From NCBI RefSeq assembly GCF_009931435.1, contig NZ_CP043414.1: a stretch of DNA of 64,000 nt. One strand, 5' to 3'. Below, one piece after another: positions 35,704 to 36,243 of the stretch (within the stretch, counting starts at the first letter, position 1; every line of letters starts with the position of its first letter). The translations under genes were made by a program, and so were the position numbers. The notes beneath the pieces were generated by a model. It did not search any database and was not told the origin of the DNA. It worked only from the letters and a program-made list of their open reading frames with translations. The DNA comes from Escherichia coli (GTDB taxonomy: Bacteria; Pseudomonadota; Gammaproteobacteria; Enterobacterales; Enterobacteriaceae).

Positions 35704-36048
35704 TTAGTCCTTGCGTAACTCGCTAATTCTTCTGTAAGTCTCTGGTGCTTTGTTTCCGTGTATCTTCATTTCAGACTTCAACAGAGCAACGAGAGAATCC
35801 CATTCGTTGAGGATGCCTTTGAATGCCGGAACGCGCTTTGCAACCTTGTCGAATGAATCCCTGATTTCTGGAATCTGCTCGACAAGCGCAACGCATCGTC
35901 GGAAATCGGCTGCGTCATGTGGAGCACCGAAGCTATGACCATAGATATTCTTTTTCAGTCCACATGCGATTGAGGCAAGAGTTGCGCTACTGATGCCAAC
36001 ATCGCCAGTCGATTGCCATTTCAAAACCTTCATAGCCAAATCTGACAT
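35704..36048 (-). CDS. Hypothetical protein (114 aa), prophage cargo
   Basis: ORF with SD GGAGA 6 nt upstream of the ATG; followed on the minus strand by a hairpin plus T-run (ccgcatcaatgcgg-tttttt); no family recognised by eye. Confidence 0.55.
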   Translation of the reverse strand: MSDLAMKVLKWQSTGDVGISSATLASIACGLKKNIYGHSFGAPHDAADFRRCVALVEQIPEIRDSFDKVAKRVPAFKGILNEWDSLVALLKSEMKIHGNKAPETYRRISELRKD

Positions 36049-36075
36049 TTCTTGTCTCCAATAAAAAAACCGCCA

Positions 36076-36243
36076 TCAGGCGGCTTGGTGTTCTTTCAGT
36101 TCTTCAATTCGAATATTGGTTATGTCTGCATGTGCTATCTGCGCCCATATTATCCAGTGGTCATAGCAGTCGTTGATGTTCTCTGCTTCGATAACCCTGT
36201 TGAATGGCTCTCCATTCCATTCTCCTGTGACTCGGAAGTGCAT
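36076..36243 (-). CDS. Hypothetical small protein (55 aa), not in the ORF track
   Basis: ATG (plus 36241-36243 = cat) preceded by an in-frame stop and SD GGAG at -11; translates to MHFRVTGEWNGEPFNRVIEAENINDCYDHWIIWAQIAHADITNIRIEELKEHQAA*; the stop lies inside a GC hairpin followed by T7. Confidence 0.45.
   Translation of the reverse strand: MHFRVTGEWNGEPFNRVIEAENINDCYDHWIIWAQIAHADITNIRIEELKEHQAA

What the first reader, a model, noticed from the sequence alone, without database searches (positions are those of the whole stretch)
35704..36243. Compact two-gene module of unknown function: hidden 55-aa ORF plus 114-aa protein
A 55-aa minus-strand ORF (36076..36243) falls below the track cutoff but has an ATG directly after an in-frame stop and a GGAG Shine-Dalgarno. 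Its stop codon lies inside a GC hairpin followed by T7, and only 14 nt later a second SD (GGAGA) and the ATG of a 114-aa ORF follow. Two more terminator-like hairpins (36263..36279, 36296..36311) isolate the pair from the upstream PACE gene. I recognise neither protein. A terminator placed between two tightly linked small genes is what attenuated or differentially expressed two-gene modules look like (toxin-antitoxin, anti-defence or regulatory pairs in prophages), but that is inference.
Basis: partly seen in the sequence, partly recalled or inferred. Interest (0 to 1): 0.6.

Follow-up and report, generated by a model that had tools for sequence, protein, structure and literature searches.

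The report
Known lambdoid prophage genes orf55 and ORF114
The two small genes are real but already catalogued: they are phage lambda's orf55 and phage 434's ORF114, two independent accessory gene cassettes bounded by terminators, left behind in a decayed prophage, and not a toxin-antitoxin-like pair.

Summary

- **Identity.** The 55-aa ORF is 96% identical to phage lambda orf55 (lambdap35, PHROG 676). The 114-aa ORF is 96.5% identical to phage 434 ORF114 (PHROG 1229).
- **Prior annotation.** GenBank M60848 (phage 434) already annotates tL4, ORF55, ORF114, t'I, xis and int in this order.
- **Location.** They are the last genes of the "exo-xis" stretch of the lambdoid leftward early operon, directly upstream of the excisionase (here torI). 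They lie in a ~3.7-kb decayed prophage at argW.
- **Both are real genes.** pN/pS is 0.17 and 0.07.
- **They travel independently.** 64 of 80 orf55 loci lack ORF114. About 35 of 80 ORF114 loci lack orf55. Only 295 of 2,691 carrier E. coli genomes have them adjacent.
- **The "internal" terminator belongs to the orf55 cassette.** It is present whatever gene follows.
- **Function is unknown.** Orf55 has a generic ββαβ fold; the resemblance to T7 Gp2 is weak. ORF114 is a confident seven-helix protein with no solved relative, from a large uncharacterised family.

Ordinary, already known, low interest.

The parts
36294..36313 (-). First hairpin of the tandem terminator tL4 (8-bp stem, then TTTCTTTT). 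It lies just inside the phage-derived DNA, immediately after the junction with the PACE/LysR insert (~36317).
   Evidence: Scan. RNA fold -14.8 kcal/mol, z = -4.4. Conserved in lambda, 434, HK140 and prophages, with stem changes in 434 (CCTCG...CGAGG) that keep it paired. Annotated 't-L4' in M60848.
36263..36282 (-). Second hairpin of tL4 (8-bp stem, then TTTTGTTTT). Its T-tail runs into the orf55 Shine-Dalgarno site (ATGGAGA).
   Evidence: -11.9 kcal/mol, z = -5.1. Nearly invariant in all six aligned sequences. The same tail and SD directly precede ORF114 in about 35 of 80 loci that lack orf55.
36076..36243 (-). orf55, homologue of phage lambda orf55 / lambdap35 (55 aa, PHROG 676). Small ββαβ protein of unknown function.
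36060..36086 (-). Intrinsic-terminator-like hairpin plus T7 run that contains the orf55 stop codon. It is the 3' boundary of the orf55 cassette.
   Evidence: -13.0 kcal/mol. Present after orf55 whichever gene follows: lambda xis, torI, AlpA-type xis or ORF114. Annotated 'rho-independent terminator' in phage HK140.
35704..36048 (-). ORF114, homologue of phage 434 ORF114 (114 aa, PHROG 1229). Compact seven-helix protein with invariant P43, D45, D48, R51, C52 and W83. Function unknown.
35624..35645 (-). t'I-like terminator hairpin (GCCGCATCAATGCGG plus T6) between ORF114 and torI. It is a diverged copy of the orf55-stop hairpin.
   Evidence: -8.2 kcal/mol. Aligns with the feature annotated t'-I in 434 and with the lambda orf55-stop hairpin.
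35379..35579 (-). torI, the excisionase (recombination directionality factor) of the KplE1/CPS-53-type argW prophage. It is the gene the upstream terminators precede.
   Evidence: Identical in sequence to K-12 TorI. PGAP annotation 'response regulator inhibitor TorI'.
36386..37832 (.). PACE efflux transporter (36386..36844, -) and divergent LysR regulator (36948..37832, +). This is cargo inserted in the exo-xis region upstream of tL4. It is context, not part of the pair.
   Evidence: NCBIfam NF033665 E = 2.9e-61. The same block lies inside an intact lambdoid prophage in E. coli VCSW7.

Best explanation
The two ORFs are two separate accessory gene cassettes from the far end of the leftward early (PL) operon of lambdoid phages. 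This is the 'exo-xis region', just upstream of the excisionase gene.

**Shown.**
- One is lambda orf55 and the other is phage 434 ORF114.
- Each cassette consists of a Shine-Dalgarno site, the ORF, and a hairpin plus T-run at its 3' end.
- The order tL4 (two hairpins), orf55 with hairpin, ORF114 with hairpin (t'I), xis is the arrangement annotated for phage 434.
- Cassettes are gained and lost exactly at the short shared sequence 'T-run + AT(T)GGAGA'. The terminator tails therefore also mark the mosaic joints.
- In this window the cassettes sit in a ~3.7-kb prophage remnant at argW: intS pseudogene, PACE/LysR cargo, orf55, ORF114, torI. It has no PL promoter, no N gene and no promoter-like site of its own.

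**Inferred.**
- In an intact phage these genes are transcribed only when N-modified RNA polymerase from PL reads through the terminators. Without N, the same terminators keep stray transcription out of xis.
- In this remnant the genes are probably poorly expressed or silent, despite being intact.
- Orf55 probably acts by binding a host protein, as the small phage inhibitors with the same ββαβ topology do.
- ORF114 probably binds a ligand or partner through its invariant PxDxxDxxRC / GxSS patch.
- Neither function is established.
For: **Identity.**
- orf55 is 96.4% identical to lambda and 434. The lambda record shows it as lambdap35, next to xis.
- ORF114 is 96.5% identical to 434 ORF114.
- M60848 annotates t-L4, ORF55, ORF114, t'-I, xis and int in that order.
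- PHROG 676 and PHROG 1229 give full-length matches.

**Operon context.** In intact prophages the pair lies at the end of N...exo/erf...ea genes, before xis and int.

**Independence.**
- Of 80 IMG/VR orf55 loci, 64 go straight to an excisionase gene: lambda xis 36, torI 23, AlpA-type 5.
- About 35 of 80 ORF114 loci have tL4 directly upstream, with no orf55.
- 2,691 of 5,426 complete E. coli genomes carry at least one of the two genes. Only 295 have them adjacent.

**Cassette joints.** Three junction types share TTTTAT(T)GGAGA.

**Hairpins.**
- They are conserved across lambda, 434, HK140 and prophages, with stem changes in 434 that keep the first hairpin paired.
- They are stable relative to shuffles and enriched 8 versus 1.2.
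- HK140 annotates the orf55-stop hairpin as a terminator.
- A Mannheimia phage keeps a 33%-identical ORF114 homologue flanked by annotated terminators, just upstream of xis/int.

**Remnant status.** intS and the pyrophosphohydrolase are pseudogenes, with argW adjacent. No sigma-70-like site lies on the minus strand in 35300-36900.

**Coding.** pN/pS is 0.17 and 0.07.

**Literature.** orf55 is listed as the last ORF of the lambda exo-xis region (PMC3824215; PMC8614690).
Against: - No transcription or translation data were examined for this strain. Termination efficiency of the hairpins and N-dependent read-through are inferred from sequence and from general lambda biology, not measured.
- The promoter scan is a crude consensus search and could miss a weak or non-sigma-70 promoter.
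- The two genes are adjacent in a substantial minority of loci: 16 of 80 orf55 loci and 31 of 80 ORF114 loci by tblastn, and 295 genomes. A functional interaction when both are present is therefore not excluded.
- The protein-level functions are guesses. Orf55's fold is generic, and ORF114 has no informative structural or family match.
Confidence: 0.85

Rival explanations
1. The pair is a dedicated two-gene system, such as a type II toxin-antitoxin or an effector with its regulator. In this reading the internal terminator sets the ratio of the two products.
For: - The genes are adjacent, with a 27-nt gap, and each has its own SD.
- The arrangement recurs in phage 434 and in 295 E. coli genomes.
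- Small gene size and prophage location fit many TA modules.
Against: - Each gene is found more often without the other.
- Lambda itself has orf55 but no ORF114.
- The terminator belongs to the orf55 cassette, whatever gene follows.
- There is no upstream promoter-like site, only two terminators.
- Pfam, NCBIfam and PADLOC give no hits.
- ORF114 homologues in Vibrio, Yersinia, Arthrobacter and Mannheimia phages have no orf55-like neighbour, and orf55 is almost confined to Escherichia and Klebsiella.
Confidence: 0.04
2. Orf55 is a T7 Gp2-like inhibitor or modulator of host RNA polymerase, as proposed from modelling by Donaldson (PMC8614690). ORF114 would be an unrelated neighbour.
For: - The published AlphaFold/RoseTTAFold model resembles Gp2, and a docked model in RNAP was built.
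- My own model has the same ββαβ topology, pLDDT 89.9.
- The gene is expressed early in lambda, in a region reported to affect host replication and the lysis-lysogeny choice.
Against: - UDG inhibitor p56, anti-CRISPRs AcrIE2 and AcrIC9, and Dmd score about the same, so the fold is generic.
- Only one of the two key Gp2 arginines is conserved, and the authors call the model speculative.
- There are no binding data.
Confidence: 0.15
3. One or both proteins are anti-defence factors, as are many small early accessory genes of temperate phages. They would neutralise a host immune system by binding a protein or a signalling molecule.
For: - They lie in the early accessory region beside known counter-defence genes: anti-RecBCD, Ral, and Lar-like genes in other phages.
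- Their distribution is patchy and cassette-like.
- ORF114 has a strongly conserved polar patch (P43, D45, D48, R51, C52, G18, S20, S21) suited to ligand binding.
- Orf55's fold weakly matches p56, Acr proteins and Dmd.
Against: - No experimental link was found in the literature searched.
- Location alone is weak evidence.
Confidence: 0.2

Closest known systems
Phage lambda orf55 (lambdap35, NP_597778.1), the last ORF of the exo-xis region
   Same: - 96.4% amino-acid identity over all 55 residues.
- Same upstream tandem hairpins, same SD and same stop-overlapping terminator.
- Same position at the end of the PL operon.
   Different: - In lambda the next gene is xis. Here ORF114 is interposed and the excisionase is torI.
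- The window copy sits in a decayed prophage without PL or N.
Phage 434 ORF55-ORF114 segment (GenBank M60848: t-L4, ORF55, ORF114, t'-I, xis, int)
   Same: Identical gene order, spacing and terminators. ORF114 is 96.5% identical.
   Different: - 434 uses a lambda-type Xis/Int. The window has TorI, and its integrase is only a pseudogene.
- A PACE/LysR cargo block lies upstream of tL4 here.
K-12 CPS-53/KplE1 prophage end (yfdS, yfdT, ypdJ, torI)
   Same: - Same integration site (argW) and an identical torI.
- DNA homology (94.5%) from just after the ORF114 stop through torI to the attachment site.
   Different: K-12 carries yfdS, yfdT and ypdJ where the window carries orf55 and ORF114. There is no protein similarity between them.
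Type II toxin-antitoxin modules
   Same: Two small adjacent same-strand genes in a prophage.
   Different: No obligate co-occurrence, no own promoter, no family match, and a terminator between the genes that is shared with non-paired contexts.
T7 Gp2 (RNA polymerase inhibitor)
   Different: Low, non-specific structural score, about 16-18% identity, only one of two key arginines conserved, and no evidence of RNAP binding.

Membership tests
Lambda Orf55 family (PHROG 676) | Full-length sequence match to the family profile or to lambda orf55 | tested here: met
   phrog_676 E = 2.1e-38 over residues 1-55 of a 55-position profile. 96.4% identity to lambda.
Lambda Orf55 family (PHROG 676) | Position at the distal end of the PL operon, directly before the excision module, with tL4 upstream and a stop-overlapping hairpin | tested here: met
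   Alignment with lambda, 434 and HK140. Annotated records.
Phage 434 ORF114 family (PHROG 1229) | Full-length sequence match, including the invariant PxDxxDxxRC and GxSS motifs | tested here: met
   phrog_1229 E = 1.9e-51. 96.5% identity to 434 ORF114. Invariant P43, D45, D48, R51, C52 and W83 are present in the query.
Type II toxin-antitoxin module | The two genes co-occur as an obligate pair | tested here: not met
   64 of 80 orf55 loci lack ORF114. About 35 of 80 ORF114 loci have tL4 directly upstream, with no orf55. Only 295 of 2,691 carrier genomes have both adjacent.
Type II toxin-antitoxin module | Own autoregulated promoter directly upstream of the bicistron | tested here: not met
   No sigma-70-like site on the minus strand in 35300-36900. 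Two terminators lie upstream instead. This is a consensus scan only, so a weak promoter cannot be excluded.
Type II toxin-antitoxin module | Homology of either protein to a known toxin or antitoxin family | tested here: not met
   [not shown]
Type II toxin-antitoxin module | Toxicity of one product that is neutralised by the other | not testable with these tools
   Requires expression experiments.
T7 Gp2-like RNA polymerase inhibitors | Specific structural similarity to Gp2 | tested here: inconclusive
   [not shown]
T7 Gp2-like RNA polymerase inhibitors | Binding to the RNAP β' jaw through two conserved arginines | not testable with these tools
   According to PMC8614690, only one of the two arginine positions is conserved (N43, R45).
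Intrinsic (rho-independent) terminators | GC-rich stem-loop followed directly by a U-run on the transcribed strand | tested here: met
   Four such sites lie on the minus strand. Stabilities are -8.2 to -14.8 kcal/mol, z = -2.8 to -5.1. Stem changes in 434 keep hairpin 1 paired.
Intrinsic (rho-independent) terminators | Measured termination of transcription | not testable with these tools
   Only database annotations exist: t-L4 and t'-I in M60848 and 'terminator' in HK140.

The most novel reading that the evidence does not exclude
The ORF114 family is a very widespread phage early protein with a previously undescribed function. Possibilities include a ligand-binding or catalytic anti-defence or host-takeover factor.

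- It has at least 1,901 clusters at 50% identity, across Proteobacteria and Actinobacteria phages.
- It has no Pfam family.
- It folds as a confident seven-helix protein with no solved relative.
- It carries an invariant PxDxxDxxRC patch.

Its habitual placement as a terminator-bounded cassette next to xis/int may be functionally meaningful rather than a by-product of mosaic recombination. This placement is seen from E. coli to Mannheimia phages.
Probability: 0.25. Interest if true: 0.55.

Novelty: already known. Interest (0 to 1): 0.15.

Why it matters
As a genome-scan finding it matters little. The genes, their order and their terminators are already annotated for phage 434 in GenBank M60848, and orf55 is part of the much-studied lambda genome.

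Three points have some residual value.
- The analysis removes a false lead, since this is not a toxin-antitoxin-like module.
- It documents cleanly that terminator tail plus Shine-Dalgarno sequences act as the joints at which small accessory cassettes are swapped in the exo-xis region.
- It flags ORF114 as a large family with a confident fold and conserved motifs but no Pfam entry, no solved structure and no known function. That makes it a reasonable target for anyone screening phage early genes.

Tried and rejected
tblastn against the K-12 CPS-53 region found no similarity to yfdS, yfdT or ypdJ. DNA homology begins only after the ORF114 stop.
- **Family libraries.** Pfam, NCBIfam and PADLOC gave nothing for either protein.
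- **Fusion partners of ORF114-domain proteins.** Among 48 long members there is no recurrent partner. One fusion joins the domain to a CCA-adding/poly(A)-polymerase head plus HD domain. It comes from a single 1.9-kb metagenome contig, so I did not build on it.
- **Literature hits for 'ORF55'.** Phage T5 ORF55 (the DRT4 trigger) and DruSM1 ORF55 (an anti-Avs ligase) are unrelated proteins that share only the name. A search for 'ORF114' with '434' and 'xis' listed no paper that contains 'ORF114'.
- **Rfam.** The region holds only the argW tRNA.
- **Complex model.** A structural model of the two proteins together was not attempted. The tool folds single chains, and the co-occurring pairs are more than 95% identical, so they carry no co-variation signal.

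Full report
**1. Observation**

- The 55-aa ORF is at 36076..36243. Its ATG follows an in-frame TAA, and GGAG lies 7 nt upstream.
- Its TGA stop sits in the loop of an 8-bp hairpin (36086..36067), followed by T7.
- Fourteen nucleotides containing GGAGA then lead to the ATG of the 114-aa ORF (35704..36048).
- Two further hairpins with T-rich tails lie at 36313..36294 and 36282..36263.

The consensus scan finds 8 terminator-like sites in this 1.6 kb, against 1.2 ± 1.2 in shuffles. The four minus-strand hairpins fold at -8.2 to -14.8 kcal/mol, with z-scores of -2.8 to -5.1.

Both ORFs are real genes. Among 47 and 62 distinct DNA alleles collected from related loci there are no internal stops. Variable sites cluster at third codon positions (12/4/19 and 13/7/38), and pN/pS is 0.17 and 0.07.

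**2. What the genes are**

The 55-aa protein matches PHROG 676 end to end (E = 2e-38), and the 114-aa protein matches PHROG 1229 (E = 1.9e-51). Both families are of unknown function.
- tblastn against phage genomes shows the 55-aa protein is 96.4% identical to an ORF at 29121-29285 of phage lambda. The lambda record annotates this as lambdap35, directly upstream of xis.
- The 114-aa protein is 96.5% identical to 'ORF114' of phage 434, and 100% identical to a protein of phage Gally.
- GenBank M60848 is titled 'Phage 434 integrase (int), excisionase (xis), ORF114, and ORF55 genes'. It annotates terminator t-L4, ORF55, ORF114, terminator t'-I, xis and int in exactly the order seen in the window.
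- The HK140 record annotates the hairpin that overlaps the orf55 stop as a rho-independent terminator.
- PGAP annotates both genes as hypothetical proteins in many complete E. coli genomes.

So the ORFs are neither hidden nor new. They are also not homologues of K-12 yfdS, yfdT or ypdJ. K-12 homology (94.5%) begins only just after the ORF114 stop and runs through torI.

**3. Context**

The gene downstream (35379..35579) is torI, the KplE1/CPS-53 excisionase. It is identical to K-12 TorI.

Upstream lie, in order:
- a PACE efflux gene and a divergent LysR regulator;
- a dATP/dGTP pyrophosphohydrolase pseudogene;
- an intS pseudogene;
- tRNA-Arg argW.

The window therefore holds a ~3.7-kb decayed prophage between argW and the csc sucrose genes. 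It lacks PL and N.

In intact prophages the same two genes end a long leftward early operon.
- In Ecol_545 the order is N ... Rad52-like/ssb/exonuclease ... anti-RecBCD ... DUF551/ASCH ... orf55, ORF114, torI.
- In VCSW7 the order is N, ral, cIII, kil, gam, bet, exo, orf60a, orf63, TraR-like orf73, ea22, pyrophosphohydrolase, LysR/PACE, orf55, ORF114, xis, int.

This is the 'exo-xis region' of the literature, where orf55 is listed as the last ORF (PMC3824215; PMC8614690).

**4. Is it a two-gene module?**

No. Several lines of evidence agree.
- Of 80 IMG/VR loci found with orf55, 64 go directly from orf55 to an excisionase gene: lambda xis 36, torI 23, AlpA-type 5. Only 16 have ORF114 in between.
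- Of 80 loci found with ORF114, tblastn detects orf55 upstream in 31. Inspection of the 70 nt upstream shows that about 35 have the tL4 hairpins directly in front of ORF114, with no orf55 at all. A further ~14 keep only the 3' part of orf55.
- In 5,426 complete E. coli genomes, 2,691 carry at least one of the genes. Only 295 have a match covering at least 80% of the pair.
- orf55 is almost confined to Escherichia and Klebsiella. ORF114 relatives occur in Vibrio, Yersinia, Mannheimia, Aeromonas, Klebsiella and Arthrobacter phages, and they number at least 1,901 clusters at 50% identity. None of the four distant contexts I inspected has an orf55-like neighbour.

**5. What the hairpins are**

The block 'two hairpins, orf55, stop-overlapping hairpin' is almost invariant in lambda, 434, HK140 and two prophages. 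Similarity ends a few bases before the first hairpin and just after the T-run. In 434, changes on both sides of the first hairpin's stem keep it paired (CCTCG...CGAGG).

The hairpin after ORF114 (t'I) is a diverged copy of the one after orf55. In lambda, the orf55 hairpin occupies the position t'I has in 434.

The junctions are precise.
- In front of orf55: ...GTTTTGTTTTATGGAGA|TGATAAATG.
- In front of ORF114 when orf55 is present: ...GGTTTTTTTATTGGAGA|CAAGAAATG.
- In front of ORF114 when orf55 is absent: ...GTTTTGTTTTATGGAGA|CAAGAAATG.

Each cassette is therefore 'spacer, ATG, ORF, hairpin, T-run, AT(T)GGAGA'. Exchange happens in the shared terminator tail plus Shine-Dalgarno sequence. The 'terminator between two tightly linked genes' is the 3' end of the orf55 cassette, present whatever follows. 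It is not an attenuator specific to this pair.

A Mannheimia phage keeps a 33%-identical ORF114 homologue between two annotated terminators just upstream of a small xis-like gene and int. A terminator-bounded cassette next to the excision module is therefore a recurring design.

From established lambda biology (my knowledge, not tested here), PL transcripts cross such terminators only when modified by N. Without N they would keep transcription out of xis.

In this window there is no PL or N, and no promoter-like site on the coding strand. Transcription from the PACE promoter would meet both tL4 hairpins. I therefore infer little or no expression.

**6. The proteins**

*Orf55.*
- AF2 gives pLDDT 89.9 with a ββαβ topology, in agreement with the published model.
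- T7 Gp2 (4.8 and 4.4), the RNAP ε subunit (4.8), UDG inhibitor p56 (4.5), AcrIE2 (4.6), AcrIC9 (4.2) and T4 Dmd (4.3) all score similarly.
- The fold is thus generic among small binding proteins. The published Gp2-like RNAP-modulator idea is possible but not specifically supported.

*ORF114.*
- An alignment of 73 diverse homologues has invariant P43, D45, D48, R51, C52 and W83, and near-invariant W11, G18, S20, S21, G30, L55 and P60.
- AF2 gives pLDDT 96.3 and pTM 0.89, with seven helices.
- AFDB50 returns only uncharacterised homologues.
- Longer family members have varied, mostly unrecognisable extensions.
- The single fusion to a CCA-adding/poly(A) polymerase head comes from one 1.9-kb contig.
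- Pfam, NCBIfam and PADLOC have no match for either protein.

**7. Comparison with known systems and verdict**

The locus is a member of two catalogued phage gene families, and it reproduces the phage 434 arrangement.

It fails the testable defining features of a toxin-antitoxin module: obligate pairing, own promoter and family homology. The literature attributes effects on lysogenisation, induction and host replication to the exo-xis region as a whole. It attributes nothing to orf55 or ORF114 individually.

The finding is ordinary and already known. Its main residual interest is that ORF114 belongs to a large, well-folded and completely uncharacterised phage protein family.

Noticed in passing
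window 36386..37832; L007 10761..12207: The PACE efflux transporter and its divergent LysR regulator are cargo carried inside the exo-xis region of an otherwise intact lambdoid prophage in E. coli VCSW7, between a dATP/dGTP pyrophosphohydrolase gene and tL4/orf55. The same block is what survives in the window's decayed argW island. A biocide-efflux gene riding in a phage early operon is worth noting.
   Followed up: partly
window 36049..36069 and 36244..36262; loci L088-L167: Cassette exchange joints: the orf55 cassette is present or absent exactly between two copies of 'T-run + AT(T)GGAGA' (terminator tail plus Shine-Dalgarno site). This gives three junction types across 160 loci.
   Followed up: yes
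window 35650..35700 (minus strand): Directly after the ORF114 stop, the sequence reads SLTLDEARSFLKISRPTI. This corresponds to the C-terminus of K-12 ypdJ and, from my own knowledge rather than any test here, resembles the start of an excisionase-type helix-turn-helix. It is probably a gene relic. It also forms a hairpin (35698..35680). K-12 homology starts at ~35701.
   Followed up: partly
window 37833..39043: The prophage left end is degraded: intS fragments (about 38322..38843) with an internal stop, fused to a frameshifted dATP/dGTP pyrophosphohydrolase fragment, next to tRNA-Arg argW (38972..39043, minus). This rests on the annotation of a 99.9%-identical genome and on Rfam.
   Followed up: partly
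L171 3444..3909 (Mannheimia phage vB_MhS_1152AP2): A 33%-identical ORF114 homologue is flanked on both sides by annotated rho-independent terminators. It lies just upstream of a small xis-like gene and the integrase, the same layout as in E. coli lambdoid phages.
   Followed up: no
[not shown]
   Followed up: partly
window 32622..34855: The csc sucrose-utilisation genes (fructokinase-like cscK at 32622..33536, permease cscB at 33608..34855) lie immediately beyond torI, replacing K-12's dsdC/dsdX at this junction.
   Followed up: no
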